Of a DNA stretch of 64,000 nt, positions 2,661 to 47,762 are shown piece after piece. Made by a program: the position numbers and the translations under genes. This DNA is from Azolla caroliniana (taxonomy: Eukaryota > Plantae > Polypodiophyta), in NCBI GenBank assembly GCA_043228905.1, contig JBHGNT010000009.1:1178001-1242000 (forward strand), given 5' to 3'. Under the pieces are notes generated by a model that saw nothing but the letters and a program-made list of their open reading frames with translations, was not told the origin of the DNA and did not search any database. Numbering within the stretch: position 1 is the stretch's first letter; every line of letters starts with the position of its first letter.

Positions 2661-3840
2661 GTTTGAATCCCTTCCAACTAGAAGCATCACCTGTCTTCAT
2701 CATTGACCTTGCTTCTAGAGTTACCATCGTCAACATCCTTGATTCCAGAGTTACCGTCATCAATATCCCTTCGTTTCCTATCTTCCTCGCCATCTCTATC
2801 TCATAGTTTCTTCTCATCGTTGTCTTCGTCTTTTAGTTTCTGCTCATCATTGTCTCTGTTTTTTAGTTTCTTCTCATCCTCCACATATCTATCTTTGTGT
2901 TTCTTATCTTCACCTTGCTTGTTTATGGTTCCTTGCAGAGCATTCAAATATTTATAAGCATTTTCTCCATTATTGTTGAATTTATTGCATTAATATCAAG
3001 AATAGTCGGTGATCTTGGTTCATTATTGTCCATAGCCACACACTTTGTGGCCCCCCTTGTGAGTGCTTGCCATTGTACTCCAAAACCCTATGAGAATTAT
3101 ACTTTTGAAATTTGTTAGCTTTAATTGATTATAGAAGTAATATTCTTAGATCATATCATAGATCTTGTTGTGAGCTTTGATTCACGGAATAGAAAGAAGG
3201 GAAGAGAGAAACAAAACAATAGCTATGAGTCAAAGAATAAAAGAGCAATGTGGCTAAAGTTTTTTTGAAAGGAGGATTAAAACTTGAGATGTAAGTTCAT
3301 ATAAATTAATACAATCACATTTTGTTTCCATTGGAGTATGTTTTATAGGTAGTGTCGAGTCATAAATTAATAGTTTAATATATATAAAAAAATATAACTT
3401 TATTTAAAGATATTTTGTGATTAGTCAAAATGATTTGATCTATCTCAAAACTCATGGGTCCATGACCTAACTTGGAAAAACCAATCCTTATGATGACATA
3501 ATTGGGGAACCAGATGTGAACAATGCGAGGTGGTAGATGGAGGCATCATAGATGATGGGTGTTGTCTTGGTGGCCTATGGCTTGGGGGAGTTGATAATAA
3601 TAGGGAGTGTTCCAAAGCTTTGAATTCTTTGATTTCTAATGAAGGTGAACAAGGTGATGTTGTAGGATAATAAGGAGCAACAAAGTATCTCAAGATGGCG
3701 AAACAATTCAAGATACAAACTACCAAAAAGATCTAGATGGGTGTTAAGTAGTTATGAAGTTGGTGACATCAAAATTAGAGCCTTAAGACATATCTATTCA
3801 CAAGGAAAAGGATCTACATTATCTTGTTTTGGTTTTGATT

Positions 3841-21930: not shown

Positions 21931-22558
21931 AGGGCGGCAAAGGAGTCGAAAGATGAGGGGATCGGAGCTAGTAGAGGCAATGGCGGTGGCCGTCGACCGA
22001 CTGGTAAGCGCTCGTGAGGGGACGGGTACCCTCGACAGAGCCATTGAATCGATCGTCGGCTCTATAGGCCGGTTCGGAGGGAAAGACGCCACAAGTTATT
22101 TGGAGGCTTGCCGGGCCGAAATGATCATGAGGGATAATCCCGGTGGACAGGCGGCTGTCCGGATTCCCTCGGGTGGTGACGCCGAGCATCCACGCGGAAG
22201 TGCTCGAGGTGCTGGCCGGATGTCAAACTTGGGAGGATTTCGAGCTGTAGCTCCTCGAGAAGTACGGGTTTGACGGCTCGCTTCGGTTGTCGAGGCGGGA
22301 CTTCATGGCATGGGTGGAAAGCCCCGGAAAGGGGAGGAACACGTCGGCGCTCCTCCAAGAGTTCGAAAAACGGTTTGCGCGGCTGTCGAAGCTGGACCGG
22401 ACCGTGCTCGAAACGAGTCGAGTACTACTGTTTGTCAAGTCAGTGGACGCGCTCGACAGGGAAAAGGTGGGTCCCCTATTGGAGACGGACGAAGGGCTCA
22501 CGACATACTGGGCCGTGGTAAAACGGGTCTACAGCAGCCGTTTGTCATGATATGGCAA

Positions 22559-22612
22559 GACTCGAACCCATGACCTTAGGTTATATGGGTCGAGCTCTTG
22601 ACCATTAGATCA
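22559..22612 (-). promoter_or_regulatory. tRNA-like Pol III A box and B box, antisense in U3
   Basis: Minus strand reads TGATCTAATGG ... GGTTCGAGTC with the canonical 45-nt T8-G53 spacing. The cloverleaf is not preserved. Confidence 0.6.
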
Positions 22613-22688
22613 TCTATTGTAATACGTAGGATATTATTTTCATTTATATTTTATTATAGGAAATTAGTGTATATTCCAGATTTCTCTA

Positions 22689-22706
22689 GAACATTCTAGA
22701 AGCTTC
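22689..22706. promoter_or_regulatory. Perfect 4-unit heat-shock element
   Basis: GAA-CA-TTC-TA-GAA-GC-TTC, about 20 bp upstream of TATAAAA (22727). Also present at 47471-47488. Confidence 0.7.
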
Positions 22707-22837
22707 AGGATTACTCCTGAAAACACTATAAAAGAGGGCACTAGGCATTATATTGAACCAAATTGGTTCAACGCCAGTCTTAAGGCTTTTAGCCACCATT
22801 GTATATTCTCTTCATATAATACATATCTTTCTTATCA

Positions 22838-22880
<43 letters not shown>

Positions 22881-23054
22881 CTCGCTCACTTCTTCCTTCT
22901 CTCGAAGAAGTTCCACACCTCTCATAGTACTAATCCTTCGTTTAGTACTATTCCTTCTCTGTCTCAGTACTGTTCCTGACAGTTTGAACCAATTTTCCTA
23001 CCTTTTGTCTCTCTCATTTCCTACTAATCTTTTATTCCTCTTTTCTTTCATCCC

Positions 23055-24206
23055 ATGGCCACTGTTAGCGCTGAAGAATATCAATCTGTTTTCTCGGAAT
23101 TTCAATGCTTGAAGGAGAAGTTCCATGCTTTGGAACAAGAAAACCAACGGTTGTTGGGGGATCTTCAGCAAATCTCCTTAGAAAAGCAGCAAACGCAACA
23201 ACAACATGAGGAACTTGCGTTACGCATGCAACAACTCGAAGCAACCATCGTAGCGATGCAACAACAAGGGCCCGGAACACAAGGGATTCATAAAGAACCC
23301 AAGATTAGCCTTCCCACGAAGTTCGATGGAACGCGATCGCAGTTTAGAGGGTTCCTTAACCAGGTACGATTAGTTATTCAAATGCATCCTTCCCGATATC
23401 CCACCGATGCATCACGAGTGGGTTTAGTAGGCACTTTGTTAAGTGGCTCAACGTTGTCATGGTTCGCTCCACTATTAGAAAAGGAATCTCCGTTACTCAA
23501 CAATTTTGAAGAGTTTCTAGGTGAGTTTAAAGCATGTTTCGGAGATACTGACAGCATCAGGATCGCAATCAACAAAATCCGGCGATTACGCCAAGGTGAC
23601 CGTCCAGCCTCCACATACGCTGCAGATTTTCGCCTACTTGCCGCCGATATCCCTTGGGATGACCAAGCGTTGATGGAGCAATTCCGTTATGGTTTACGGA
23701 ACGACGTTAAGGATTTACTCTTGACCTTCCCCGAAGAGCCAAAGTCCTTAACAGAAGCAATCAGTCGCGCGGTGAGATGTGACAACCGCCTCTTTGAGCG
23801 ACGTTTGGAACGACAACTACAGATGCCGAGGGCAAGATCAGAGCCCACCTACGCCTCAGTGGTAGCAAGACCTTTTCCGAGGGAGTCATATAATGCGCCT
23901 CCAGCGAATACTCCGACTCCGATGGAGATTGACACTGCACGTCGTCGAGGGCCATTATCCGAAGAAGAAAAGCAGCGACGCCGTACAAATCGAATATGTC
24001 TTTACTGCGGTGGACCAGGACATATCGCAATAAATTGCCCCCATAGGCTAAGAAGACAGGTAAACCAAATAGTCGCTAGTTGTAATTGTACTAAACCCGA
24101 GCCTATTTCAATAGGGATATCTGATAGTCCTAATAGTACTAATATCCTAGATCTAGCAAACAAATTTGATGTCCTTAGTCAGTTAGAAGAAGAGTTAAAT
24201 GACTAA
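23055..24206 (+). CDS. gag: Chromovirus Gag (383 aa)
   Basis: N-terminal coiled coil, PTKFDG, LRQG..ASTY..DF, PMEID and CLYCGGPGHIAINC zinc knuckle; the ORF is intact. Confidence 0.93.
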   Translation: MATVSAEEYQSVFSEFQCLKEKFHALEQENQRLLGDLQQISLEKQQTQQQHEELALRMQQLEATIVAMQQQGPGTQGIHKEPKISLPTKFDGTRSQFRGFLNQVRLVIQMHPSRYPTDASRVGLVGTLLSGSTLSWFAPLLEKESPLLNNFEEFLGEFKACFGDTDSIRIAINKIRRLRQGDRPASTYAADFRLLAADIPWDDQALMEQFRYGLRNDVKDLLLTFPEEPKSLTEAISRAVRCDNRLFERRLERQLQMPRARSEPTYASVVARPFPRESYNAPPANTPTPMEIDTARRRGPLSEEEKQRRRTNRICLYCGGPGHIAINCPHRLRRQVNQIVASCNCTKPEPISIGISDSPNSTNILDLANKFDVLSQLEEELND

Positions 24207-25361
24207 GTCCAGCCAAAATAGGAGCCGTTTGGTTGGACAGCCCTAGATCTGTGCAGCCCATTAGTGGTTCCATTCCCTCTAAGCAAGTTAGTGATGTGTT
24301 CGTAGCCCAAGTAATAGTTAGTACTAAAAGTACCCCTCCAGTACATGTCCTAGCACTCCTAGATTCCGGAGCTAACTCTTGCTTTATGGATAAGAAATTT
24401 GCTCAAGCTCATAAGATATCCCTAAGAAAACTCCAGTGTCCAGCCTCTGTAGTAGTCATTGATGGACGTCCCATTGCTTCTGGAAATATCATAGAAGAGT
24501 TAGAGCCCATTAATATTGTCCTAGATAACTTAGCATGTGTAGTATCATTTAATATTATTAGTATCCCAGAACATCCTATAGTTTTAGGATTACCGTGGTT
24601 CGAGTTACATAACCCAGACATAGATTGGAGAACAAGAGAAATCCAGTGTCGACAAACCCAATGGTCAACTCAGAAGATGGCAACCATTTCGCTACGTCAG
24701 TTGCGTAAAGAAGGGTGCAAGGAGGAAATGTTCCTCTTTGCAATATCAGTAAACCCCTCCAGCACCACTAAAGAAGAATCCACCGTTCAACTTCCCGAGA
24801 AGTATCGTCATTACGCCGATGTGTTCAATAAAGTACAAGCCAACACACTTCCTCATCATCGACCGTACGATTGCCCCATCGATTTACAACCGGGAAAAGA
24901 GCCGCCATGGGGACCGATCTACAATTTGTCACCAACCGAGCTGGAAGTCCTTCGGGCCTATATAGAGGAGAATTTGGAAAATGGTTACATTCGGCATTCG
25001 AAATCTCCAGCCGGCGCGCCCATTTTCTTCGTCAAGAAAAAAGATGGATCGCTTCGTCTCGTTGTAGATTACCGTGGCTTGAATAAGGTTACAATCAGGA
25101 ATAGGTATGCTCTTCCCCTTATCTCAAGTCTTTTAGAACGGATCAATGGTGCCAGGTTCTTCACGAAGATCGACTTATGGGGAGCATATAACCTCGTACG
25201 GATCCGACCAGGAGACGAATGGAAGACCGCGTTTCGCACCAGATATGGGCACTTCGAGTATATGGTCATGTCGTTCGGCCTCACTAATGCACCGACAGTC
25301 TTCCAGCACATGGCTAATGATATATTCCGAGATCTATTGGATGATTGTTTGATCATCTATT
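24203..25361 (+). pseudogene. pol: Chromovirus pol part 1 (protease and RT N-terminal half)
   Basis: LLDSGAN, SPAGAPIFFVKKKDG, DYRGLN, KTAFRT and FGLTNAP. It lies in the -1 frame relative to gag and is cut at IY|LDD. Confidence 0.93.
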
Positions 25362-26016
25362 TGTTGAGAACTCGACGTTCCTTATGTCCGACGCTCGGCC
25401 ACAACCGAGATTCTTTACATACACAGAAAAAACAGGTAATGAAACGCGACACAAAAGAGGAGAAATGATACACAGGAGGTATACGTGGAAAAACCCCAAA
25501 ATAGGGGAAAAAACCACGGCAGCCCACAAGCTGCAAACTGTCGCTATGTAGAAATATACAACAGTGAGATCACTGAGGCAACGACCTCGTGCTCTCAGAT
25601 CTTCGCCACAGGCGGCGGTTACAACAGAGGCAACGACCTCGTCTCTCTCTCTCTCTCTCTCTGTACAGTTACGTGCTCTGATTTCTTCTTGCACCAACAA
25701 CGAAGAATAATAACAAGAATGACAACATATACTAAAAGTTTGCCCTAAGTCATATTTATACTAATATGACTTTTCGGCTATTTACAAATGTAGCCTCGAT
25801 GGGCTCCATCCGGCTCTCCGCAGTCGGGTACTCCTCATCCGGTTCATACTGGGCCTACACCATCCGACTCTCCGCAGTCAGGTACTCCTCATCCGGTTCA
25901 TACCGGGCCTACACCATCCGACTCTCCGAAGTCGGGTTCTCCCCATCCGGTTCATACCGTTTGTTCGTCGGCACTGTTCTTCTCCCTTCCCATCCGGAGG
26001 GACCTGTTTCCCAACA
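25362..26016 (-). mobile_element. Copia solo LTR inserted in the RT YLDD motif
   Basis: TGTTG...CAACA termini, TSD CTATT (25357-25361 and 26017-26021). Homologous to LTR 55156; contains 51-bp tandem repeats. Confidence 0.92.
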
Positions 26017-26375
26017 CTATTTGGATGATCTACTGGTTTATTCAAAGACCCAAGAAGAACATGATTCTCATGTACTATTAGTACTAAAACGACTTCGAGA
26101 ACATGGTCTGTATGCAAAGCTGGAAAAATGTAGTTTTGGGTGCAACCAAGTGGAATTTCTTGGCTACATCATTTCGTCAGAAGGCATCTCCATGGACCCA
26201 GCTAAGGTCAAAACGGTGGTGGAATGGCAGACTCCACGTTCGGTGCGGGATGTGCAATGCTTCTTAGGCTTTGCCAATTTTTACCGGAAGTTCATACAAG
26301 ATTACTCAAAGATCGTTCTACCTCTCACACAACTTACCAGGAAGGGACAACCATTCATCTGGTCTGAAGAAACGG
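26017..26375 (+). pseudogene. pol: Chromovirus pol part 2 (RT C-terminal half)
   Basis: YLDDLLVYS, KCSF, FLGYII and FLGFANFYRKFI. Confidence 0.92.
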
Positions 26376-29300
26376 TGTCGTGAAGAATTTTGGCCAGAGG
26401 CGGAAACCGGGAACATTGGCTACATCGGCGGGGTGCAGTGTGTGAACGCACCCATGTACATTTAGTGTCAATATCGAGGGCGCCTTTATGGCGCCGAAGA
26501 GTGGTCAAGTCGGGGCAGATGATCCCATGTAAGGCGGGATTTGTCCCACATTGTAACGCATCCCTGTCCTTGTTCTATAAAAGGAAGGGAACGCCCTCTG
26601 TGAGAGGGTTGCCCATTTTGCATTAGAGGGTATACCGTTAGGTTTAGAGTTAGGTTTCTTCTCCTTCTTCTCTCCCCTTCGTGTTTTGCTTAGGGTTTGC
26701 TTTGGTTCGGCCTCTTGTGAAAGACCCCGCTCGGCGCGACGAGTTAAGAGCTCCCCGACGGCGGCTTGGCAACAGACGACTATTGTAACCAACCTCAGTC
26801 CGGCATGAAGCCGGGAATGTATTCTTCTTATATATACATACATGTACGTTTACGTTTGTCTGTGTATATTCGCGTCGTTGTTGGCGTCGGGTGCTTACCC
26901 TCTCCTGCGTTTTCTGTACATAAGGCGTGAGTCGGGTTGGGCTGTGTGTGCGAGTGTGCGTGTGCGTGTGCGTGAGTCGGTGTTAAGCTCGCTCTCTCTC
27001 TCTCTCCCTTCGGTTGCTTCCGGTGTGTTTCTGGGATGCCCCAGAAACAGTGAAGCACGACTTCCTACGCTCCATCGCTCTCTAGTCCAAGACCCCCGTG
27101 GTCCCGCCTTTCTCCACGCACGCGCGTAACAACGCGACATCTTTGGTGAACCCGACGTGAAAGGCAGCAAGGGAGGATGGAGTCGGAAGACGACGACCTT
27201 GCGGAGATGGTGGCCGAAGTGGTGTTAGAGTCGGCACGAGTGGTGATGAGGAGAGAAGCAGCGCAACAAGCGATTGAGCGAGTGGTCGAAAGAGTCGGCC
27301 GTTTCAACGGGGACAAAGTCCCATCTTACTTGGAAGCCTACAACGCGGAAATGGAGGAGTGTGGCATAGACGAGGCGTTGAGGCTGGAGTTCTTCTGCCG
27401 GGTCGTAGCTGTCCGGATGCATGCGGAAGTAAAGGAGCTCCGTGAGGCTCATAGTTCGTGGGAGGCCTTCGAAGAGGCGCTCCTGAAGGCATACGGAGGA
27501 TGGCGGAAGAGCCAGGGACAACACGACTTTGACCAGTGGGTAGCATCGGCAAAGACCCACCGGGGCACGACGAAGGCGTTCCGAGAGTTCGAGCGACGGC
27601 TTGCTCGGCTCCCGGAGCGGGAACAAGGTTTGGTGGGGGCGGACAAAGTCCTTTTGTTCGTCAGGTCGATCGACCGAGCGGAACGGGAAGCCATTGGGAT
27701 TGAGCTCGAAGACGATGACGGAGCGAATGGGCTTACGGAGGACTGGTCGAAGGTCGGAATGGTGTGCCAACGGCTAGACAAAGAGTGAGCCGAGAAGGCT
27801 AAGAGGAAGGGGCGCGACGGCGTGCCATCACAGCGGGAAGAGGCCGAACGGAAAAGGGAGTTGGCAAGGATCGGCGTTGGGGCCAGGATTGCGGAGGCGT
27901 ACGCTGCTCTCGAGGCGATGCTCGAGGAAGAGGAAAGATCAAGGCCGCAAGACAAGACTGAGGAGACGGACTTGCCCCACGCGACGGCGGAAGATCGGTA
28001 CGACGGTACCACGGGAGAGGGTGCGGAACGAAACGCCCTCTCGACTTGCGGAGATAGAACGGCCAAGGACGAGGCCGAGATACAAATCGCGGAACCGGAA
28101 CGTTGGGACCAGCGGTTTCGGGCGTGTCAGCCCGAGATCCCGGTCATTGGAGAAGCAAGCCCAGACGGGGCTTGCGCGATCGGTAAGAAGACAACCGCCG
28201 ACCACGAAGAGTCGGTGGCTACGGACAAGGGCGCAAAACGGATGGGCGATTCTTTGTGTCTTCCCACACTTGCTCCCGAGACGATGGCAGTCGGGCCCGA
28301 GTGCCCACGTGAGTCCCAAGCGGAGGAAGGCGGCGGCGAAAGGGCAAGAATCATCGGCGAGACGATGCGGGGAAGGTGCGGACGAAAGCCCACAGACTCG
28401 ATTCCGGAGAAATCGGCATTCGGGCCCGTATGGCCATGTAAGACCGAGGAGATGGATGGCGGTACCGAGGAGTCCTGGCACAATGCCAACGAAGTCGGAT
28501 GGGAAACGGCCTGCGAGGAGGCCGAGGACGGAAGCGGCACGAGGAGATCGTCATTCCGATACGGATGGAGCGTGATCCGGTCGTGGATCAGTCGATCGAG
28601 GCCGGATTCGGCATAAAGGTGCCGATACGGGAGAGGGTGCGGGACGAGCCGCCCTCTTTTACATGGGGAGAAAGACCGACCAGGCGAAGGTCGAGATTTG
28701 GAAGAGAATGAAAGCCAGTCCTATGGGATTCCTTACACCGATCCGGCTGCCGGCCCTAGTGCCCGCGTAAGTCCTATACGAGAGATCGGTGGCGACAGGA
28801 GAACGGGACCCGAAAATCCGGATAAAGACGAACGGACCCAAGCGAGAACCGGGCGGAGCGGACTCCCGGATGACCATTCCGGGAGGGAGGAAGAGAGTTG
28901 GCCTACGAAGAGGCCGAGGACACGGTACGTCGATACCACGGGAGAGGGTGCGGAGTAAACCGCCCTCTCGGCATGCGGATAGGGACGACCCGGGACAGGG
29001 TCGGGAAGACGGATCGGAAGCCTACGAAGGATCCTTCACACCGGTTCTAGAGACTTCGGCAGTCGGCAACGCGGTCGACGTAAGACCAAGATACTGACGG
29101 TGGCGGCGAGGTGATGAAGGCAATGGGTGTAAGGAAGTCCGGTCCTACGAGATCCCCACACTTAACCGGAGAGTCCGGCTGTTTGGCCAACGTGGCAACG
29201 TAAGACCGAGGGAGAAGGAAGGTGGCGGCAGGAAACGGGACCTGACTACGCGGAAGACACGAGGAGAGTTCGGGAGGGACTCAAACAAAAGACACCCGAA

Positions 29301-31288
29301 TTTCGGCCAGCATAGAAATGGAGTTTGGTCCTATGGGACCCTCACACCGATCCGGAGACCCCGGCTGTTCGGCCAACGTGGCAACGTAAGACCGAGGGAG
29401 AAGGACGGTGGCGGCAGGGAACAGGACCCGACGACACGAGGTTTCGGAAGGAGCCGATAGGGGCAAACACGGGGCGGTGTGTCAGGCCGGAAAGGCACAC
29501 CTTGGATGGAATAAGAGTCTCGCAAGTGGCCATTGCGGGCCGGATCAAAGCGTGACTACGGGACAGTGTTCGGCACGGGCGGTGCCGAACAAAGGAAGCG
29601 GAAGACGGCACAAGAGAGGTGCCGGGAACGAGGTGACAAGTGCCTAGTGGACTGCACAGGGTCGGAGTTAGGGGATGGCAAGAGAGCCTGGAGGAGGATC
29701 CTCCACACTCGCTTCGTAGATCTCGGTAGCTCCGTCGAAGTAGCGAAGACTGACACGGCAAGCCGGGATGACAAGCTGGTGGTGGCGAGGGGACGACGGC
29801 AAGAGGAAGACTCAGGACCTATCACGGCAACACGAAGATGGGAAGGGCCAAGCGGGCTACTACGGGGTGTTCCTCAGATGCAAAGGACACCGATATGCGG
29901 GTGAGCGGCGATGCACGATCTGGCCGGGAAAGGGGCCGACGAGGCGTGCAATGAACTGGAGTACGGCACAGGCGGTGCCAAACAACAGACGAGGGTATGT
30001 GGCACACGGAGGTGCCAGAGCGGAAAGGCGAGCACGGAGATAGGTTTCGCGGAGAAGGCCGGAAAGGGATCCTCCACACCGTTCCGGAGACCATGGCGGT
30101 TCGAGCCGACGCGGCGATGTAAGACCATGGAGAAGGAAGGTGGCGGCGAGAGGAGGACGAGGGCAACGCGAAACGACAAGGGACGATAATCAGGACGACG
30201 CGAATGATCAACGGAGGCCAAGCGGGCCACTACGGGCATGCCTCAAGCGGAGGACATCGGGCCTACGACGGGAAGCGGGGCGTTCATATGGCCGAACAAG
30301 GGCCAACGGAAGTACGCGTACTACGGAGATCGCGACAGAGGACTCATCGACGGGTCGAACGAGCCTACGGGGAGGCAAGCGCGAAGGAAGACTCGAAGCC
30401 GACGTATCAAACCGGCAGCAAGCCGAGATGCGGATCACGGGAGACCGGTTTCTCGCCGGCCGAAATCTCTCACCCTTCAACCAGATTTGGCACGTACTGG
30501 TGGACGTGTAGTTAGGTGGGGGCGGATGTCGTGAAGAATTTCGGCCAGAGGCGGAAACCGGGAACATTGGCTACATCGGTGGGGTGCAGCGTGTGAACGC
30601 ACCCATGTACATTTAGTGTCAATATTGAGGGCGCCTTTATGGCGCCGAAGAGTGGTCAAGTCGGGGCAGACGATCCCATGTAAGGCGGGATTTGTCCCAC
30701 ATTGTAACGCATCCCTGTCCTTGTTCTATAAAAGGAAGGGAACGTCCTCTGTGAGAGGGTTGACCATTTTGCATTAGAGGGTATACCGTTAGGTTTAGAT
30801 TTAGGTTTCTTCTCCTTCCTCTCTCCCCTTCGTGTTTTGCTTAGGGTTTGCTTTGGTTCGGTCTCCTGTGCAAGACCCCGCTCGGCGCGACGAGCTGGGA
30901 GCTCCCCGACGGCGGCTTGGCAGCAGACGACTATTATAACCAACCTCAGTCCGGCATGAAGCCGGGAATGTATTCTTCTTATATATACATACATGTACGT
31001 TTACGTTTGTCTGTGTATATTCGCGTCGTTGTTGGCGTCGGGTGCTTACCCTCTCCTGCGTTTTCTGTACATAAGGCGTGAGTCAGGTTGGGCTGTGTGT
31101 GCGAGTGTGTGTGTGCGTGTGCGTGAGTCGGTGTTAAGCTCACTCTCTCTCTCTCCCTTCGGTTGCTTCTGGTGTGTTTCTGGGATGCCCTAGAAACAGT
31201 GAAGCACGACTTCCTACGTTCCATCGCTCTCTAGTCCAAGACCCCCGTGGTCTCGCCTTTCTCCACGCATGCGCGTAACAACGCGACA
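26376..31288 (+). mobile_element. Non-autonomous, Gag-only W-family element D
   Basis: LTRs 26376-27139 and 30527-31288, TSD ACGG, Trp PBS and W-type PPT. No PR, RT or IN motifs. Confidence 0.93.
27177..27788 (+). CDS. Truncated Gag-like protein (N-terminal region only)
   Basis: GRFNGDKVPSYLEAYNAEM and KVLLFVRSID align with W Gag GRFDGKDATKYLASYGAEM and RVLLFVKSVD. No zinc knuckle. Confidence 0.8.
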   Translation: MESEDDDLAEMVAEVVLESARVVMRREAAQQAIERVVERVGRFNGDKVPSYLEAYNAEMEECGIDEALRLEFFCRVVAVRMHAEVKELREAHSSWEAFEEALLKAYGGWRKSQGQHDFDQWVASAKTHRGTTKAFREFERRLARLPEREQGLVGADKVLLFVRSIDRAEREAIGIELEDDDGANGLTEDWSKVGMVCQRLDKE

Positions 31289-31581
31289 ACGGACATGCCT
31301 TTCGAGAGTCTAAAAAAGGCATTTACATCGGCTCCAATTCTAGCTCATGTCGATCCGGAAAAACCATTCATTATAGAAGCTGACGCATCGGATTTTGCAT
31401 TGGGGAGCATTCTGTCATAACAGGGGAATGATGAGAAGCTACATCCTGTGGCTTTTCACTCACGCATGTTTGATGCCGCCGAAATCAACTACGAAATTCA
31501 TGATAAGGAGCTATTGGCAATAGTGGATTCTTTTATGCAATGGAGGCATTTTCTGGAGGGATCCTCTCATCCAGTCACCGT
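31289..31581 (+). pseudogene. pol: Chromovirus pol part 3 (RNase H)
   Basis: [10 protein letters not shown] and [13 protein letters not shown]; one stop at 31418. Confidence 0.9.
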
Positions 31582-32246
31582 TGTCGTGAAGAAAACCGTC
31601 CACAAGAGGAATCGGTGTACCGGAGCATAGAGACCGACTCTTCATGCACGTGCGCCTTAAGTTGTACATAGGAGATCCTAGGTAAATTCGGTAGGTAGGG
31701 AGTAAAGGGCGGGGAGTCGAGGACGAAGTGCTGTCGGATTGGGCGCGAAGTCTCTCTCTCTCTCTCGTTCTCTCTCGCTCTCGCTCTCTCTCTCTCTCGC
31801 TCTCTCTCTGTCTCTGGTTCGCAAACTCCATAGCTTCCTTCTGTGCAGGTTTCGGGAGGCTCGCGCTGCTCTGAGGAATGCCCGAGTGCTTCCGGCAGCA
31901 CCTCCAACCTGTTCCTGTCTTTCTGTGCGTTTACGAACAGGTATCGGCATCTGTCCGCCGGCCTGTTCGGTTGTAACCAACATCGTGTTTTAGTGACTCC
32001 GTGTTCTTGTCGTTTGTCTTGTCAATACATACATACTTTCGCGTCTTTCTGTGTCGCTGTCCCACTCGCGTCTTGCGTCGAAGGGCCGTGTCCCTGTGAG
32101 TCTACGCTCGCACGTAGCGGGTCTCTCTCTCTCTCTTACTCTTTGGTACAGGACCCCCGAGGTCCCGCCTCACTCCGCGCATCCGCGAGGAATACCTCGA
32201 CATATTTGGTGAACCCGACGTGAAGGAGGCGGCAGAAGAGCAGAAG

Positions 32247-33710
32247 ATGAGGGGGTCGGATCTTGCAGAGGCCATGGCTTCAGCCGTGGATCGGATATTG
32301 AGCACGCGTGAGGGCACCGGCGCCCTCGACAGAGCCATTGAGGCGGTTGTCGGTACGATCGGCCGTTTCAGCGGAAAGGATGCTACGAAGTATTTGGCGT
32401 CCTACGGGGCGGAAATGCTGATGCGGGACATTCCGGAAGAGAGGCGTCTTGCCGGGTTCCCTCGAGTGGCGATGCCAAGCATCCATGCGGAGGTGCTCGA
32501 GTTACAGGTGGAGAGCCGTACCTGGGAGGAGTTCGAAGGCCGACTCCTAGAGAAATATGGGCTGGACGACGCGCTCCGGCTTTCGAAACGGGACTTCATG
32601 GAATGGGTGGAGTTCCCCGGCAAAGGAAGAAATGCGTCGGCACTCCTCCGGGAGTTCGAAGAACGCTTTGCGCGCCTTTCGGCGCTTGACCGAACGATCC
32701 TGGATACGAGCCGAGTCCTACTGTTCGTCAAATCGGTGGACGAGCGGGACCGGGATCAAGTCGGCTCCTTGCTGGAAACCGAAGACGGGTTGACAACCGA
32801 CTGGGCTGCGGTTAAGAGAGTTTGTGGCTGTTTCGACAAACGGCGAGAATGGGCTGACAACGGGGCGGCCGATGCGGGCTCTGTTACAGCAAGGAGGCTT
32901 GGACCGGCGCCGCAAGTACGAAGGGAAGAAGCCCGGGAATGGCTCGAAACCGGTCCGGCTTCGACTGACATGGTCAATGGCTCGTCCGGAGGAGCAGCGC
33001 TGGAGGAGTTGACGCGTGCGATAAAGGATCTCCAGATCGCCCAGACTCGAAGGGAAGGCGGCGAACCGGCTCGTGACCGACGGCCGGCAGAAGGGAACAG
33101 GTGCATGTGGTGCGACGAGGTCGGCCACATCCGGAAGGACTGCGGCGATTTCGCAGAAGCGTTGAGGAGCCGGGTGGTGTACCTGTGGGAAGGCCGGGTG
33201 CACGCCGGCGACACCAGAAGGGCCCTAAACCGAAATGACGGACGAGGAGGTATGAAGAGACTGATGGAAGAGGCAGCGGCCCGACACGTGGAGGCCATCC
33301 ACTACTCGGCGTCGGCCGGCATTCGGGTCGGGGGCAGCGAGGCCCGAAAGGAGGGCAAAGACGGATTCTCGTCGACAATGCTGGAAGGTCTTGCCGGCGC
33401 ACGGCCAAGGAAAGACGAAACGGACTGTGCTGAGAGACGGGTCCGGGAAATAACCGGGTGGAGCGATCCGGTCGAGGAGAAAACGGGCTTCGTAGAAGCC
33501 GCTTGCCGGAACTACGAGGCTCTGGTAGAAGACAAGCGAGTGGGGAAAGCCGGAGCGGCCGGGCCCTCACAACGATACGAGACCCGATTCGGGCAACGAC
33601 GGAACGATGCCGGCGGATCCAGCTCGCAAGACAACCCCAGGAAGGGCGGATACCGACTGGGGACAGAAATAGAAAGGACTACGGACCTACGAAAGGTCCT
33701 AGAAGAACGG
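32247..33710 (+). pseudogene. gag: Element B gag, interrupted by element C
   Basis: MRGSDLAEAM start and CMWCDEVGHIRKDC knuckle. The reading resumes at 41002 (EER|ILDSK). Confidence 0.9.
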
Positions 33711-34539
33711 TGTCGTGAAGAAAACCGTCCCTAAGCGGAATCGGCGCACCAAGGCGTGGGAACCGGTTCTTCACGCGCGCACGCTCCAAGTTGTACATAG
33801 AATCGAATTAGGAGGATAATCGGCAGGAACGGGCCCTAACACGAGTGGAGACAAAGACCGCGCGAACAGTCTTTTCGGTCACGCGCGCGAACTGTACGAG
33901 TCGGCGGCGTAACTACGCGGATGCGTGAAGAACAGAGGAGATCCCTGTCAAAAAGGGACAGGGAATAAAGCTGACAGGACGGCCTGCTCGACGGCCTATA
34001 TAAGGAGCAGGAAAGAGCTGCTGCAGGGATCTCGCGCGGAGAGGACGAAGTGCTGTCGGACCGTTTCCGGACGCTTCTCTCTCTGTTTCCTTCCTTATTG
34101 AGCTCCATAGCTTTCTGTGCAGGGTTCGGAGGAGGCTCGCGCTGTTTCGAGGAACGCCCGGAGAGCTTCCGGCAGCACCTCCGACCTGCTACCCCTTTGT
34201 GCGTCGAAGCGAACAGGCATCGGCGTCTGTTTGCCGGCCTGTTCGGTTGTCACCAACTTGTGCCCCATCGAGGGTTGTAGTAGTGTTAGCCATTTCTGTT
34301 AATATACATAATTAGTCATTCGCGTCTGTCTGTGTCGGTGTCTGGGCGCATTCTCCGTCCCGAAGGGCCGTGTCCCTGTGTATCCCCGGTCCCGCGTAGC
34401 CGGTCCTCTCACTTTCTCCTCCCTCGCTGGCTCTTTGGTTCGAGACCCCCGCGGTCCCGCCTCGTTTCCACACGCACTTGCATAATACCTCGACATCTTT
34501 GGTGAACCCGACGTGAAGGAGGCGGCAGAAGAGCAGAAG

Positions 34540-36666
34540 ATGAGGGGGTCGGATCTTGCAGAGGCCATGGCTTCGGCCGTGGATCGGATTGTAAACACGC
34601 GCGAGGGCGCCGGTGCCCTCGACAGAGCTGTTGAGGCGGTCGTCGGCACGATCGGCCGGTTCGATGGGAAGGATGCCACGAAGTATTTGGCGTCCTACGG
34701 TGCAGAGATGCTGATGCGGGACATTCCGGAAGAAAGGCGTCTTGCCGGATTTCCCCGAGTGGCGATGCCGAGCATCCATGCGGAGGTACTCGAGGTGCGG
34801 GCGGAGAGCCGTACCTGGGAGGAGTTCGAAGGTCGGCTCCTAGAGAAATACGGGCTGGACGACGCGCTCCGGCTCTCGAAGCGAAGGTTCATGGAATGGG
34901 TGGAGTCCCCGGGGAAGGGAAGAAACGCTTCGGCACTCCTCCGGGAGTTCGAGGAAAACTTTGCGCGCCTTTCGGCGCTCGACCGAACCATCCTGGACAC
35001 GAGCCGGGTCTTGCTGTTTGTCAAGTCGGTCGACGAGCGGGATCGGGAGCAAGTGGGCCTCTTGCTGGAAACCGAAGACGGGCTCACTACCGACTGGGCG
35101 GCTGTCAAGAAAGTCTGTGGCCGTTTCGACAAACGGCGAGAATGGGCGGATAACGGGGCTACCGGTTCGGGCTCGGTCGCAGCAAGGAAGCTCGAACCAG
35201 CGCCACAGGTGCGAAAGGAAGAGACCCGAGAGTGGTTGGAAACCGGTTCGGCTTCGACCGGCGTAGTCAGAGGCTCAACCGGAGGAGCGGCGTTGGAGGA
35301 ATTGACGAGGGCGATAAAGGACCTCCAAATCGCGCAAGCCCGAAGGGAAGGTGGCGAACCGGCTCGTGACCGACGGCCGGCGGCAGGAAACAGGTGCATG
35401 TGGTGCGATGAAGTCGGCCACATTCGGAAGGACTGCGGCGACTTCGCGGAGGCGCTGAGAGACAGGGTGGTGTACCTGTGGGAAGGGCGGGTGCATGCCA
35501 GCGACACTCGAAGGGCCCTGAGCCGAAATGACGGGCGAGGTGGTATGAAAAGGTTGATGGAAGAGGCGGCGGCCCGACATGCGGAAACCGTCCACTACTC
35601 GGCGTCGGCCGGCATTCGAGTCGGGGGCGGCGAGGCCCGAAGGGAAAGCAAAGCCGGATTCTGGCCGACAGTGCTGGAAGGCCTTGCCGGTGCAAGGCTT
35701 AAAGGGGAGGAATCGGACCGTGCGGAGAAACGGGTACGGGAGATGACCGGGTGGAGCGACCCGGTCGAAGAAAAGACGGGCTTCGTGGAAGCCGCTTGCC
35801 AGAACTACGAGGCTCTGGTAGAAGAGAAGCGGGTGGGGAAACCCGGGACGACCGGGCCCTCGCAACGATACGAGACCCGGTCCGGGCCACGGCGGGACGA
35901 GACCGGCGGGGCCGGTACGCAAGATAAACCCCAGAAGGGCGGGTACCGTCTGGGGACGGAGATAGAAAGGACCACGGACTTACGAAAGGTCCTAGAGGAA
36001 CGGATCCTCGACAGCAAGGTGGAGCTGTCGCTACGAGAGGTGCTGGGAATCGCCAAGAAGGAGTTCCACGACTCCATCGTGGACTTGGTGAAACGGAAGA
36101 GGCTGTCAACGGAGACAGAACCGGAAAGACCGGTGGAAGTGCGGACGACGCACCTAGACGACATGGCGCTGGGAGATGAGTGGGCGGAAAGCCACTATTC
36201 GAGACCACACTGGGCCCGAGCGACCACGGAAACCCCGGTGAAGATCGGCGATGTCCAGGAACCGGTGATAGCTTTGGTGGACCACGGATCGGAGATCAAT
36301 TTGATGTCCATGGACTTCTATAAGAGGGGCAAATGGCCGATCAACACCAAGCACGGGTGGAAAATAAGGGCAGCAACGCGCGCCACCGAGGAACTGCACG
36401 GGGCCTGCCCGAATGTGCGAGTCAAGATCGGCGACGTCGAGATTGACCAGCACTTCTTCGTGCAGGAGACGTCTTCGCATCCGGTCATACTGGGAGAGCC
36501 GTACATCACGGCGGCGCGAATGGAGACCAAGGTGCTGGACAATGGTTCGGCTTACGCGAGGGTCAAAAGCCAAGACGGGTGCCATTCGGTCCAGTTTCTG
36601 ACGGTAAGGCCGAACCACGAACGCAACCGCAACTCCCTCGGTTCCGAAAACCGAGAGGATTTTTAG
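34540..36666 (+). CDS. gag: Element C Gag-protease polyprotein
   Basis: Intact ORF with CCHC knuckle and protease-like LVDHGSEINLM...VILGEPY. It ends at GGATTTTTAG. Confidence 0.92.
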   Translation: MRGSDLAEAMASAVDRIVNTREGAGALDRAVEAVVGTIGRFDGKDATKYLASYGAEMLMRDIPEERRLAGFPRVAMPSIHAEVLEVRAESRTWEEFEGRLLEKYGLDDALRLSKRRFMEWVESPGKGRNASALLREFEENFARLSALDRTILDTSRVLLFVKSVDERDREQVGLLLETEDGLTTDWAAVKKVCGRFDKRREWADNGATGSGSVAARKLEPAPQVRKEETREWLETGSASTGVVRGSTGGAALEELTRAIKDLQIAQARREGGEPARDRRPAAGNRCMWCDEVGHIRKDCGDFAEALRDRVVYLWEGRVHASDTRRALSRNDGRGGMKRLMEEAAARHAETVHYSASAGIRVGGGEARRESKAGFWPTVLEGLAGARLKGEESDRAEKRVREMTGWSDPVEEKTGFVEAACQNYEALVEEKRVGKPGTTGPSQRYETRSGPRRDETGGAGTQDKPQKGGYRLGTEIERTTDLRKVLEERILDSKVELSLREVLGIAKKEFHDSIVDLVKRKRLSTETEPERPVEVRTTHLDDMALGDEWAESHYSRPHWARATTETPVKIGDVQEPVIALVDHGSEINLMSMDFYKRGKWPINTKHGWKIRAATRATEELHGACPNVRVKIGDVEIDQHFFVQETSSHPVILGEPYITAARMETKVLDNGSAYARVKSQDGCHSVQFLTVRPNHERNRNSLGSENREDF

Positions 36667-39600
36667 AGAGGACTGCCAAGGCGTGGGGCCGCGACAGTCT
36701 GGATGCTCCGGAAAAACCCCACATCTGTACGATAAAACCGTGTACGACAGGTAGGGAATTTTGCTTCTCCGACAGCGGAGCATGTACGATGGTCGGCATC
36801 GCCGGCCGAGAGAAAACAAAGACGGAGGGGAGACTTCGGGCGTGCGGAGTTCTCGGCCCTGACGAGGAAATCGACGGAGCCGTGGAGGCAGTCTCCCTCG
36901 ACGACACCTTGGGAATGCTGGGGAAGGTAGTCGAAGAAGGCCTTAACGAAGACCGGACGATACCGGTATGTTCCGAAGAGATGTATGAAGTCATCGCGGA
37001 CTTCGGTCGAGGGTTCGAGTCGGGACTAACGGCCCGAGTTAGCACCAAGTACAAGACCGTGGACCGGAAGGTGAGGCCAGTTGCGGCACCCTTACCGGAG
37101 GGCAGCGAGTCCCGAATCAAAGGGGTTGCATCGGACCCCAGCTTACGAGATCCGGCCTGCATAGGACACACCTTCACCAACGAGACGCTCCGCGAGCTGA
37201 AGATCGGTGGGGGCGGGTTCCTACTGCCGGTGGAGGAAGACCGGTTTCGGAGAATGCTCGGAAGGCACGGGAAAGCCTTCGCATTCTCACCGGAGGAAAT
37301 CGGGTGCGTAGACCCGACGATCGTAGAACCAATGGTGATATTCACGGTACCGCATGTACCGTGGAATCTCAAGCCGATTCCGGTTCCGAGAGCTCACATC
37401 CCGAAGTTGATGGAGCTGTTGAAGTAGAAAGTTGATATGGGCATTCTCGAGCCGTCGAGCGCCCCGTATTCAAACCGATGGTTTACCGTACCAAAGAAAA
37501 ACGGGTCATTGCGCTTCATTCAGGACCTGCAACCGGTCAATAGGGTGACCATTCGGAACGCAGGGATCGGACCGACCATAGACGAGTTCGCGGAGGCCTT
37601 CGCCGGAAGGTCGATTTACTCGGTCGGTGATCTATACTCAGGGTACGACCAGTTCCAGCTAGCCGTGGAGAGCAGAGACATTACGACGATGCGAACTCCC
37701 CTCGGCCTAGTGCGGATGTGTACGCTGCCACAAGGAGGGACCAACTCGGTGGCCCACATGGTGAATGCAATGAACAAGGTGCTGAGGGACTGCGTCCCGG
37801 ACATCACCATGCCGTTTCTAGACGACATCCCGATCAAGGGATGCCCGGTAGAAGAGAAGGACGAGACGATCGGGCCGGACGGATGCCGGCGATTCGTGGT
37901 GACACACATTGACGACTGCGAGAAGGTGCTGCAAAGGCTAGAGGATGCGAGGCTCACCTTCTCGGGGGAGAAGTCTGCCTTCGGGCAGTCGGAAATCATG
38001 GTGGTCGGACATTTATGTGGGCCATATGGCCGGAAACCGTCTCCGGCAAAGGTAGAAGCCATCTCCGCGATGAAGCCTGACTGCAGCTCGGTCACGGAAG
38101 TACGAAGATTCTTGGGAGCATGCGCCTTCTACCACATATGGATCCCGCATTACGCGCACGTCGCGGAGCCGCTGTACGGATTATTGAAGAAAGGGCGAAG
38201 ATTCGAATGGCTAGACAAGCACGCGGAGTCGGTCCGGAAGCTGAAGGAGGCTCTTTCGGCAGCACCGACGCTCCGAAAGGCTGTCTACAGGAAGGGCACC
38301 CCAGTGTACATAACGGTTGGCACGAGTCCGACCGGAATCGGGTGGGTCGTCAACCAAGAAGACAGGGACGGCAATCGGTTTCCAATCCGATTCGGCGCGA
38401 AGGTCCTCAGTGAGCGGCAACGGGGATACGCCCAGGTTAAACGCGAGCTCTGGGGTATCGTTTCGGCGGTGAAGACCGACAAGGACTATCTGATCGGGAC
38501 AGAGGTAATCATAGAGACGGATTGCATGCCGATTCTCGGCATGGTTCACGGATGCGCGACGCCGGACCTGGCAATGCTCAGGTGGATAGCGTACATCAAG
38601 TCCCTGGACCCGGAGATACGACACATTTCCGGGAAAGACAACGCCATGGCCGACATGCTTTCAAGGGCGAGATTCGATGACGAGGGCGCCATGGTTTCGG
38701 AGGACGAGGAGGTCGGCGTGGACTTCTTCGAGGCAGCATACGTAACAACCGGCGGGTCGAGCACTCCGGCGCTTAACGACTTCGACGCGAGCAAGTACGA
38801 CGGGGAGTGGCTGCAGATCGGCGGGTTCTTGAGGACAATGGCGCCGGATGCGTCATGGACGAAAGACGAGGCCAACCGGATCCGGAAGAAAGCGTACCGA
38901 TTCTTTCTCCGGGATGGATACTTGTGGAAGCACCCGAAGAAGAGGAACGGCGTCCCGCTCCGGGTGGTGGCAATGAAGGAAGATCAGGAGGAGCTGCTAG
39001 CGGCCTGCCACGACAGCCCTTGGGCTGGACACCGTGGGACATGGGCTACGTTTGAGAAACTGAAGGGGAAGTATTGGTGGCCGGGGCAGTACCAGGACGT
39101 GTGTCGGTTCGTGACAACTTGCGAGAGCTGTCAGATGCACTCCATAGTCCGACACCGGGACGAGCTTCACCCTACGTACCCTCCGACCATCCACTTCAAA
39201 TGGATGGTAGATCTGGTGACGATGCCAATGGGGGTAGGACAGATGCGGTACCTGGTCCTAGCACGGGAGGATCTGACGAACCAGGTGGAAGGCCGAGCCC
39301 TCCCGAACAAAACGACCGCGGCCGTATGTCGGTTCCTAATCGAGGACGTGATATGCCGGTACGGGTGCGTCGGGAAGATCGTGGCTGATCGAGGGGAGTT
39401 GGACACCGAAGAAGCCGCGGAGCTGTTCGACCGGCTCGGAGTTAAGCTCTCGCTCACCACTGCGTACAATCCGGAGGCGAATGGGAAGGTGGAGCGCGGA
39501 CACGGGCCGATCGTCAAGGCGTTGGTTCGGGCATGCGGAGGCCAAGTCGGTAACTGGCCGCGGCTGCTACCTTATGCTTTGTGGGCAGACCGGACCACGC

Positions 39601-40145
39601 ACAGTTCGGTAACTGGGTACATGCCGACGGAGCTCATGTTCGGCCAGAAGCCGATCATGCCGATGGAACGGACGATCTCCTCGTGGGCAACGGTCGACTG
39701 GAGGGACGAGATGAGCCGGGAGGAGTTGTTGGCCGCGCGTATACGACAGCTCGAGCGGAGACTGGAGGACGTGGAACTGGCTGCGGAGAGGCTCCGGGTG
39801 GCGAGGGCAAAGAACAAAGCCAGGTTCGACCGAACGCACCGGCTCCGACCGAAGAAGATCGAAGAAGGTGACTGGGTGCTCGTCTACGACAGCAGCCTCG
39901 ACAACCAGCACCGAGCTACACGGAAGTTCGCACGAAGGTGGTTTGGGCCTTACGCGGTACGGAGCGCCAATGGCAACGGGACATATCACCTGGCGGAACT
40001 CGACGGCACGAGAATGGCGATACCGGTTGCAGGGAAGCGGATCAAAGCGTTCAAGAAGCGACACGACGACGAGCCCGACCCGGCTCTCCTAGTCGGCAGT
40101 GACGAACGATCCGAAAACGAGGAAGAACCGACGGGCGAGGAATGA
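36657..40145 (+). CDS. pol: Element C Pol (RT-RH-IN) in the -1 frame, with one in-frame TAG at 37425
   Basis: LPQGGTNS, PFLDD, RGYAQVKRELWG, H..H..CESC, VADRGE, NGKVER and GPY motifs. No chromodomain. Confidence 0.9.
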
Positions 40146-42132
40146 AGACGGGCCGGTTTTCTCCGTCCCAACTCTCTTGGCGCATACCGGAGGATGCGCG
40201 GTTAGGTGGGGGCGGATGTCGTGAAGAAAACCGTCCCTAAGCGGAATCGGCGCACCAAGGCGTGGGAACCGGTTCTTCACGCGCGCACGCTCCAAGTTGT
40301 ACATAGAATCGAATTAGGAGGATAATCGGCAGGAACGGGCCCTAACACGAGTGGAGACAAAGACTGCGCGAACAGTCTTTTCGGTCACGCGCGCGAACTG
40401 TACGAGTCGGCGGCGTAACTACGCGGATGCGTGAAGAACAGAGGAGATCCCTGTCAAAAAGGGACAGGGAATAAAGCTGACAGGACGGCCTGCTCGACGG
40501 CCTATATAAGGAGCAGGAAAGAGCTGCTGCAGGGATCTCGCGCGGAGAGGACGAAGTGCTGTCGGACCGTTTCCGGACGCTTCTCTCTCTGTTTCCTTCC
40601 TTATTGAGCTCCATAGCTTTCTGTGCAGGGTTCGGAGGAGGCTCGCGCTGTTTCGAGGAACGCCCGGAGAGCTTCCGGCAGCACCTCCGACCTGCTACCC
40701 CTTTGTGCGTCGAAGCGAACAGGCATCGGCGTCTGTTTGCCGGCCTGTTCGGTTGTCACCAACCTGTGCCCCATCGAGGGTTGTAGTAGTGTTAGCCATT
40801 TCTGTTAATATACATAATTAGTCATTCGCGTCTGTCTGTGTCGGTGTCTGGGCGCATTCTCCGTCCCGAAGGGCCGTGTCCCTGTGTATCCCCGGTCCCG
40901 CGTAGCCGGTCCTCTCACTTTCTCCTCCCTCGCTGGCTCTTTGGTTCGAGACCCCCGCGGTCCCGCCTCGTTTCCACACGCACTTGCATAATACCTCGAC
41001 AACGGATCCTCGACAGCAAAGTGGAGCTGTCATTACGGGAGGTGCTAGGGATCGCCAAGAAGGAGTTCCACGACTCCATTGTAGACTTGGTGAAACGGAA
41101 GAGACTGTCGACGGGGACAGAACCGGAAAGACCGGTGGAGGTGCGGACGACGCACATCGACGACTCGGCGCTGGAAGATGAGTGGGCGGAGAGCCACTAT
41201 TCGAGGCCACACTGGGCCCGAGCGACCACGGAGACCCCGGTAAAGATCAGAGATGTTCGGGAACCGGTGGTGGCGTTGGTGGACCACGGTTCGGAAATAA
41301 ACCTAATGTCCATGGACTTCTATAAGAAGGGGAATTTTTGACGGTGCGGCCGAACCACGAGAGAAACCGCGAGTCCCTCGGTGGCGAGAACCGGGAGGAT
41401 TTTTAGAGAGGATTGCCAAGGCGTGGGGCCGAGACAGTCCGGACACTCGGAAAAGACCCCACGATTGTACGATAGGCAGGAGATTTTGCTTCTCCGACAA
41501 CGGAGGGTGTATGATGGTCGGCATCGTTGGCCGAGAAAAGACAAGGGCGGAACAGCGACTTCGAACGTGCGGAGTTCTCGGCCCGGACGAGGAAATCAGC
41601 GGAGCCGTGGAGGCGGTCTCCTTCGACGACACCTTAGGGATGCTGAGGAAGGTTGCCGGAGAAGACCTTAACGAAGACCGGACGATACCGGTATGTTCCG
41701 AAGAGATGTACGAAGTCATCGCGAACTTCAGTCGGGGGCTCGGGTCGGATCGGACGGCCCGAGTAAGCACAAGGTACAAGACTGTGGACTGGAAGGTAAG
41801 GCCAGTCCCGGATCAGAGGGGTTGCGTCGGACCCCAGCTTACGAGATCCGGCCTGCATAGGGCACACCTTCACCGACGGGACGCTCCGGGAGCTCAAAAT
41901 CGGTGGGGGCGGGTTCCTACTGCCGGCGGAGGAAGACCGGTTTCGGAGGATGCTCGGAAGGCACGGGAAAGCATTTGCATTCTCACCGGAAGAGATCGGG
42001 TGCGTAGACCCGACGATCGTGGAGCCGATGGTGATATTCACGGTACCGCATGTACCGTGGAATCTCAAGCCGATTCCGGTACCGAGAGCTCACATCCCGA
42101 AGTTGATGGAGCTATTGAGGTAGAAAGTAGAT

Positions 42133-47332: not shown

Positions 47333-47762
47333 TATGGCAAGACTCGAACCCATGACCTTAGGTTATATGGGTCGAGCTCTTGACCATTAGATCATCTATT
47401 GTAATACGTAGGATATTATTTTCATTTACATTTTATTATAGGAAATTAGTGTATATTCCAGATTTCTCTGGAACATTCTAGAAGCTTCAGGATTACTCCT
47501 GAAAACACTATAAAAGAGGGCACTAGGCATTATATTGAACCAAATTGGTTCAACGCCAGTCTTAAGGCTTTTAGCCACCATTGTATATTCTCTTCATATA
47601 ATACATATCTTTCTTATCATCACACACACACTCTCTCTCTCTCTCTCTCTTTCTCTCCGTCTCGCTCACTTCTTCCTTCTCTCGAAGAAGTTCCACACCT
47701 CTCATAGTACTAATCCTTCGTTTAGTACCAATTCCTTCTCTGTCTCAGTACTGTTCCTGACA

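What the first reader, a model, noticed from the sequence alone, without database searches (positions are those of the whole stretch)
22753..22995. Tf1-type self-priming supported by covariation between two families
Seen: no tRNA-type TGG PBS follows the LTR. Instead TTGAACCAATTT (22984-22995) complements AAATTGGTTCAA (22760-22771), 33 nt after the TATA box. In the diverged element, PBS TTGAATCCCTT (2663-2673) complements AAGGGATTCAA (2414-2424), 32 nt after its TATA box, so both partners changed together. In both LTRs a PBS-like copy also lies just upstream of the primer (perfect palindrome at 22753-22771). Established: S. pombe Tf1 primes with the first 11 nt of its own mRNA. Inference: the same mechanism operates here.
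Basis: partly seen in the sequence, partly recalled or inferred. Interest (0 to 1): 0.7.

Follow-up and report, generated by a model that had tools for sequence, protein, structure and literature searches.

The report
Self-priming Tcn1-type plant retrotransposons
Two jumping-gene copies, probably in a moss genome, lack a tRNA docking site; instead the 11-12 letters after the left repeat pair with a stretch of that repeat, and relatives keep this pairing with different letters, so they likely prime their own DNA copying as yeast Tf1 does, which was already predicted in print for this group.

Summary
Observation confirmed. Element A (22543-47762) is a complete but interrupted chromovirus: LTRs 97.5% alike, TSD CCGTT, gag, pol with chromodomain, about 5.7 kb without its three inserts. 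Its PBS pairs with 12 nt of its own LTR. Element B (LTR 2140-2660) belongs to a multi-copy family but has no gag nearby. Of 79 gag-selected relatives, 38 held both sites. With A and B, 30 of 40 form a perfect duplex, in 11 different sequences. On a gag tree, 24 of 35 primer changes share a branch with the partner PBS change (null about 6). The primer starts at C|A in 36 of 38, 32-34 nt after a TATA-like box in 35 of 38. Start site and cleavage are untested; RNA reads were too few. Self-priming was already predicted for plant Tcn1 elements (Neumann 2019, 83% of 1500). The scan has also noted it in other moss-like genomes, so novelty is low. The U3/R hairpin recurs with different letters (15 of 27 representatives) but is lost in some lineages; a masking role is a hypothesis, also noted once before by the scan.

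The parts
22543..22981 (+). Element A 5' LTR (TG...CA)
   Evidence: 97.5% match to 47325-47762; TSD CCGTT on both outer flanks
22727..22733 (+). A: TATA-like box, 33 nt before the primer
   Evidence: sequence; spacing 32-34 nt in 35 of 38 loci
22753..22759 (+). A: U3 arm TTGAACC, folds onto the primer (U3/R hairpin)
   Evidence: -7.8 kcal/mol, P=0.004 against other U3 windows
22760..22771 (+). A: predicted self-primer, the predicted first 12 nt of the RNA (C|A start)
   Evidence: perfect complement of the PBS; covaries across relatives; start site not measured
22775..22779 (+). A: conserved R core (C.GTC) predicted to pair with the LTR end 22978-22982 (short inner helix)
   Evidence: 95.5% of cells paired, GTT/AAC swap in L067 and L072; extension beyond the core varies
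22984..22995 (+). A: PBS, 2 nt after the LTR
23055..24206 (+). A: gag, open frame with zinc knuckle
   Evidence: Pfam PF03732, PF19259; weak PF00098 below its cut-off
24203..47332 (+). A: pol (PR-RT-RH-IN-chromodomain) in four pieces: about 24203-25363, 26018-26374, 31289-31573, 45542-47332; split by three nested inserts
   Evidence: tblastn with unbroken pol frames of relatives; Pfam
47312..47324 (+). A: polypurine tract
47325..47762 (+). A 3' LTR; carries the identical U3/R hairpin and primer copy at 47535-47553, the only copy predicted to be in RNA with both arms
2140..2660 (+). Element B LTR (TG...CA); multi-copy family, no partner LTR or gag in the window
2404..2421 (+). B: U3/R hairpin, different register from A
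   Evidence: -7.7 kcal/mol, no other U3 window as good (0 of 228)
2414..2424 (+). B: predicted 11-nt self-primer (C|A start, 32 nt after TATA)
2430..2659 (+). B: long predicted R-U5 inner stem (2430-2450 with 2638-2659, several G-U pairs)
   Evidence: -24.7 kcal/mol, rank 1 of 28; present in the fold
2663..2673 (+). B: PBS

Best explanation
Element A is a Ty3/gypsy chromovirus whose PBS is the exact complement of 12 nt of its own LTR, and it likely primes reverse transcription with those 12 nt, which are predicted to be the 5' end of its RNA, as Tf1 does. Inferred steps: Pol II starts at the C|A 33 nt after the TATA box. The RNA's first 12 nt (11 in B) pair with the PBS, helped by a short R-U5 helix. 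The element's RNase H cuts after the conserved ...CAA to free a 3'-OH. RT extends it into U5. Shown: the complementarity, its covariation, the promoter geometry and the element's anatomy. B is likely a non-autonomous or truncated relative that uses the same layout. The perfect covariation may partly come from plus-strand synthesis copying the primer into the PBS (inferred), not only from selection; either route needs this sequence to be the primer.
For: 30 of 40 loci with both sites have a perfect Watson-Crick duplex of 10-12 bp, in 11 distinct sequences; 33 of 40 with G-U allowed. In the 34-row alignment 94.6% of duplex cells pair and 8 of 12 pairs change on both sides. For duplex plus inner core together, 0 of 500 shuffles reach any of five measures, and slid registers give 15-54% paired. 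RNAalifold predicts 11 of these pairs unprompted. On a gag tree 24 of 35 primer changes share a branch with the partner PBS change; nulls give 6.1 (maximum 15) and 6.5. Mismatched duplexes sit in low-coverage contigs, likely single old copies (6 of 12), not in high-coverage ones (1 of 23; Fisher p=0.003). First base A in 38 of 38, C before it in 36 of 38, TATA-like box at 32-34 nt in 35 of 38. Folding from the predicted start gives pairing probability of at least 0.85 in 19 of 22 (A and B folds). Named relatives of A's integrase and gag are fungal and vertebrate, as expected for Tf1/sushi. Other elements in the window have TGG-type PBSs. Literature passages: PMC6317226, PMC7175516, PMC11042837.
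Against: No start-site data: 6-10 RNA reads per run on A's U3-R and 104 partly fitting reads on B, from a related organism, with no pile-up of ends. Seven of 40 loci have true mismatches, one at high coverage (L071). Predicted pairing is low in L067 (0.00), L079 (0.10) and L015 (0.59). The third helix of the Tf1 'pretzel' is not supported (P=0.064; A ranks 27 of 28), and the second is only marginal by energy (P=0.043). L067 and L072 have their TATA at 38-40 nt. Novikova 2010 found no self-priming site in Selaginella SM-Tcn1 (PMC2864245). Host tRNAs could not be searched: no genome is held. High-coverage contigs are collapsed repeats and may be chimeric across the microsatellite.
Confidence: 0.88

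Rival explanations
1. A host tRNA or tRNA fragment primes. The primer's 3' part (GGTTCAA, or GTTCGAATC in one clade) resembles the tRNA T-loop motif (recalled), so a fragment cut in the T-arm could pair with the PBS.
For: Motif likeness only (recalled, no call). Host tRNAs could not be checked: no genome, no tRNA gene in the window.
Against: The PBS starts TTG, not TGG. Eleven different perfect PBS sequences are each matched in cis by their own LTR, and changes track branch by branch, which a fixed host RNA cannot do. No tRNA model matches the LTR region.
Confidence: 0.04
2. The duplex is a real RNA structure with another job (packaging, dimerisation, control of gag translation), and priming happens some other way.
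For: Covariation alone shows pairing, not priming. Start site and cleavage are untested. The pretzel's third helix is missing.
Against: One arm sits exactly at the PBS position in 40 of 40 loci; this follows partly from the anchor used. The other arm ends exactly at a C|A start with fixed TATA spacing. No alternative PBS is present. The same layout primes in Tf1 (PMC7175516, passage).
Confidence: 0.07
3. On the U3/R hairpin only: it is a neutral relic of an ancestral fold-back event or a by-product of the promoter sequence, with no function.
For: Only 75.3% of cells pair against 72.6% shuffled, and 181 of 500 shuffles reach the number of pairs changed on both sides. The U3 base stays A in 8 of 10 rows where its partner changed to A. 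Absent in L027, L063 and in L012, L021, L038. Adding 20 nt of U3 leaves primer-PBS pairing almost unchanged in 14 of 22.
Against: A hairpin better than 95% of other U3 windows occurs in 15 of 27 representatives, with four unrelated arm sequences and registers (A-type, B, L015, L079). A-type and B stay significant at all five window lengths tried; L015 and L079 only at the longer ones.
Confidence: 0.55

Closest known systems
Plant Tcn1-clade chromoviruses (REXdb; Neumann et al. 2019, PMC6317226; passages, Additional file 5)
   Same: Chromodomain, 5-bp TSD, gag and pol in overlapping frames, size in range (about 5.7 kb against 5466-9444), no tRNA PBS, self-primer meeting their rule (at least 10 bp, starting 0-5 bp after the LTR).
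   Different: They predicted self-priming by blastn. In the passages read there is no covariation count, promoter geometry, inner helix or U3/R hairpin. Their element table and sequences (Additional files 1 and 3) could not be read and may hold these families.
Tf1/Tf2 of Schizosaccharomyces pombe, Tj1, Tosmo1-3; Tf1/sushi group (passages of PMC7175516, PMC5341516, PMC4600332, PMC11042837, bioRxiv 10.1101/2022.12.06.519325)
   Same: LTR-derived primer complementary to a PBS just after the 5' LTR; chromovirus; an inner duplex beside the PBS.
   Different: 12-nt primer (10-12 in relatives) against 11 in Tf1. The third pretzel duplex is not supported here. Nothing here is shown by experiment.
SM-Tcn1 of Selaginella (Novikova et al. 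2010, PMC2864245; passages)
   Same: 440-bp LTRs, two ORFs, chromodomain, 5-bp TSD, T-rich leader before gag.
   Different: Those authors found no evidence of tRNA priming or self-priming.

Membership tests
Tcn1 clade (plant Tf1/sushi chromoviruses) | Chromodomain at the integrase C-terminus | tested here: met
   PF00385 E=2.8e-15 at 46880-47329; Y, W and Y are present at the aromatic-cage positions by eye (positions recalled)
Tcn1 clade (plant Tf1/sushi chromoviruses) | 5-bp TSD, overlapping gag/pol frames, 5.5-9.4 kb | tested here: met
   TSD CCGTT; frames overlap at 24203-24206; about 5677 bp without inserts; reference values
Tcn1 clade (plant Tf1/sushi chromoviruses) | Placement with REXdb Tcn1 references in an RT-RH-INT tree | not testable with these tools
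   Reference FASTA too large to read. Indirect only: named homologues are fungal and vertebrate, none from seed plants among the named rows
Tcn1 clade (plant Tf1/sushi chromoviruses) | Moss or lycophyte host | tested here: inconclusive
   Inferred from Phygy-like neighbours (4-bp NCGN TSDs, TGG-type PBS); no host gene was tested
Tcn1 clade (plant Tf1/sushi chromoviruses) | Element B carries or is linked to Tcn1 coding domains | tested here: not met
   The gag profile finds nothing near B; the link rests on shared LTR motifs only
Tf1-type self-priming | PBS not complementary to a tRNA 3' end | tested here: met
   PBS starts TTG in A, B and all loci scored (TTG was part of the anchor for relatives); host tRNA fragments not searched
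Tf1-type self-priming | PBS complementary to an LTR segment, kept by compensatory change | tested here: met
Tf1-type self-priming | The primer is the 5' end of the RNA | tested here: inconclusive
   C|A and TATA spacing fit; RNA reads too few and not cap-selected
Tf1-type self-priming | Second duplex (R with U5 end) | tested here: inconclusive
   4-pair core 95.5% paired but nearly invariant; cognate against non-cognate P=0.043; strong in B, L076, L032, L020
Tf1-type self-priming | Third duplex of the pretzel (sequence after the PBS with the LTR) | tested here: not met
   P=0.064, weak energies, A ranks 27 of 28; absent from the folds of A and B
Tf1-type self-priming | RNase H cleavage releases the primer | not testable with these tools
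   needs virus-like particles or an in vitro assay

The most novel reading that the evidence does not exclude
Plant Tcn1-type elements carry an extra control part: a U3/R hairpin that forms only where U3 precedes the primer sequence, that is in the 3' LTR of the RNA, in read-through transcripts and in plus-strand strong-stop DNA. It masks these decoy primer copies so that only the true 5' end primes. Several lineages reached it with different letters. The PBS is also rewritten from the primer at each cycle, which lets the primer drift freely.
Probability: 0.3. Interest if true: 0.55.

Novelty: new member of a known kind. Interest (0 to 1): 0.3.

Why it matters
Self-priming is shown by experiment only in fission yeast. 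For plant Tcn1 elements it rested on blastn matches, and one paper found no site. This set adds tree-aware covariation and a precise predicted start (C|A, 32-33 nt after TATA), so a 5' RACE or compensatory-mutation test in a non-seed plant is easy to design. The main mechanism is not new. The U3/R hairpin and the copying of the primer into the PBS are the open parts.

Tried and rejected
No whole genome was held, so within-genome copies and host tRNAs could not be searched. Viral contigs gave no gag relative. No RNA holder was listed. Poly(A) RNA reads of a related organism gave 10, 9 and 6 reads on A's U3-R and 104 partly fitting reads on B, with no pile-up of ends; this is no evidence either way. 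The stretch of A laid stopped at 22845, so PBS variants among A copies were not read from runs. Rfam on the LTR region gave only chance-level hits. The third pretzel helix was not supported. The idea that the U3 arm covaries base by base with the primer in A's register was rejected as unproven. G-U intermediates (L001, L002, L074) cannot tell templating from tolerated wobble or C-to-T decay. The careful tree did not finish; the quick IQ-TREE tree and a FastTree tree were used. The gag translation was out of frame and was not used. One search had a slicing error for short contigs (L019, L056), corrected. Levin's primary papers and one review were not held.

Full report
Observation. Both PBSs begin 2 nt after the LTR's CA and start TTG. 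The exact complement appeared in 0 of 20000 resampled A LTRs and 2 of 20000 B LTRs. A and B differ at three paired positions, each compensated, and B's duplex is one pair shorter.

Element A. The LTRs are 22543-22981 and 47325-47762 (97.5%), with TSD CCGTT and a polypurine tract before the 3' LTR. The primer is identical in both LTRs. Gag (23055-24206) is open. Pol lies in four pieces split by three nested inserts and ends in a chromodomain; without inserts A is about 5.7 kb. These features match the Tcn1 row of Neumann's Additional file 5. The few named homologues are a glomeromycete gag at 56% and lizard, frog and powdery-mildew integrases at 43-56%. This fits the Tf1/sushi group, but no tree against reference elements was possible. 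The host is probably a moss; this is inferred only from Phygy-like neighbours.

Element B. The LTR is 2140-2660, with no TSD, no partner LTR and no gag-profile hit nearby. Contigs from three DNA runs of three organisms cover the LTR and about 300 nt past the PBS (1566, 2361 and 795 laid), with varied flanks after 2660. B is therefore a real family, likely non-autonomous or with a long leader. It shares the LTR start, the motif after the primer and the LTR end with A.

Covariation test. Loci were chosen by gag similarity, not by PBS: 368 stretches encoded a relative and the best 79 loci were kept. Twelve had no upstream DNA, 10 had no LTR end, and 19 had an anchor but a truncated or foreign primer region. 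Of those 19, one (L060) was a false anchor and two (L007, L009) matched over all 7-8 primer bases present. The remaining 38 plus A and B were scored; the primer was placed by the motif after it, by hand for L018 and L079. Thirty of 40 are perfect Watson-Crick duplexes, in 11 sequences; 33 of 40 with G-U; 7 have mismatches. Among the 35 with a coverage value, mismatches fall in 6 of 12 low-coverage and 1 of 23 high-coverage contigs (p=0.003). I aligned 34 of the 40, leaving out six near-duplicates; L079 is misaligned there and counts against. The duplex has 94.6% of cells paired and 8 of 12 pairs changed on both sides; no shuffle of 500 reached any measure for duplex plus inner core. RNAalifold found 11 of the pairs unprompted. 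Because relatives are not independent, changes were mapped on a gag tree of 39 rows (B has no gag): 24 of 35 primer changes share a branch with the partner PBS change, against 6.1 by branch length and 6.5 off register.

Start site. The duplex ends at A in 38 of 38 loci with room, preceded by C in 36. A TATA-like box (relaxed pattern) lies 32-34 nt upstream in 35 of 38; L067 and L072 have 38-40 nt and L015 none. That C|A fits a plant initiator is recalled knowledge. Folding from that point gives pairing probability of at least 0.85 in 19 of 22. RNA reads did not help, so the start site remains a prediction.

Other helices. A 4-pair core between R and the LTR end is 95.5% paired with one compensatory swap. 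It extends to a long stem in B (-24.7 kcal/mol), L076, L032 and L020, but overall the cognate excess is marginal (P=0.043, 28 representatives, no correction for kinship). The third pretzel helix is unsupported (P=0.064).

U3/R hairpin. In A's register the signal is weak: 75.3% against 72.6% paired (5 of 500 shuffles), and 181 of 500 reach the count of doubly changed pairs. On the tree 9 of 15 primer changes share a branch with a U3 change (nulls 2.5 and 5.0), but I did not check whether these keep the pair. Without fixing the register, 15 of 27 representatives have a hairpin better than 95% of their other U3 windows, in four unrelated forms; 12 do not. The result is stable to window length for the A-type and B, less so for L015, L076 and L079. 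Adding U3 abolishes predicted primer-PBS pairing in L008, L011, L015 and L032 and lowers it in L022 and A (0.91 to 0.68). It changes little in 14 of 22, B included; L067 and L079 pair poorly either way. The hairpin is recurrent but dispensable; masking of the 3' primer copy is a hypothesis.

Mechanism. Most likely Tf1-type: the first 12 nt pair with the PBS, RNase H cuts, RT extends (Tf1 steps from passages of PMC7175516 and PMC5341516). [quoted passage not shown] From this I infer that the primer can be copied into the progeny's PBS, which would produce covariation without double mutants; not tested.

Novelty. Neumann et al. predicted self-priming for 83% of 1500 Tcn1 elements, and the scan has two earlier moss-like reports; none matched this sequence. 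Seven searches showed no paper on covariation or a U3/R hairpin in these elements. Most hits were seen as listings only, and Butler 2001 and the Levin papers were not available. Passages were read for PMC6317226 (plus Additional file 5 whole), PMC2864245, PMC4600332, bioRxiv 10.1101/2022.12.06.519325, PMC11042837, PMC5341516, PMC7175516 and PMC3601003; no paper was read whole. Neumann's Additional files 1 and 3 could not be read and may bear on novelty. Verdict: real, well supported, known kind; interest 0.3.

Noticed in passing
window 26376-31288 and 31582-45555: Two gypsy elements nested in A's pol have 4-bp TSDs ACGG and CCGT (NCGN) and TGG-type PBSs (27144, 32207; also 21913, 34500), the Phygy signature of Neumann 2019, who described Phygy from Physcomitrella only. 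The tRNA-Trp identity of the PBS is recalled.
   Followed up: partly
window 25361-26017: A solo-LTR-like insert (TG...CA, TSD CTATT) inside A's RT, related to 55443-55853, which lies beside a DUF4219 ORF.
   Followed up: no
window 16184-21883: A LINE (ORF1 423 aa, endonuclease, RT, in-frame stops) flanked by 280-bp direct repeats at 96%; the last ORF runs into the 3' repeat. It appears to sit in a Phygy-like LTR.
   Followed up: no
window 22559-22568 and 2158-2167; many L loci: Near the U3 start lies an antisense tRNA B-box-like motif (G..TYSAACY; B-box consensus recalled). It was found 185-306 nt before the primer end in 21 of 40 loci, several of the rest being too short. No chance control was run. 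In A it is part of a local inverted repeat.
   Followed up: partly
window 2424 / 2663 (read laying joint): One contig in each of two DNA runs (two organisms) joins B's primer end to the PBS over 15 letters that begin ACTGTC, the letters RT would add first after self-priming. The inverted repeat makes the placement ambiguous; unexplained.
   Followed up: no
window 2414-2418: 11 of 34 RNA reads from a related organism lack 5 nt at the start of B's primer; not seen in the three DNA runs. Possibly one variant locus.
   Followed up: no
window 54149-55247 (minus strand): Fragment of a second chromovirus (RNase H end to integrase, 62-82% identical to A) with no gag detected.
   Followed up: partly
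L076:1349-1518 and upstream of it: A tandem duplication of the U5 end puts an extra LTR-end motif just before the true one.
   Followed up: no
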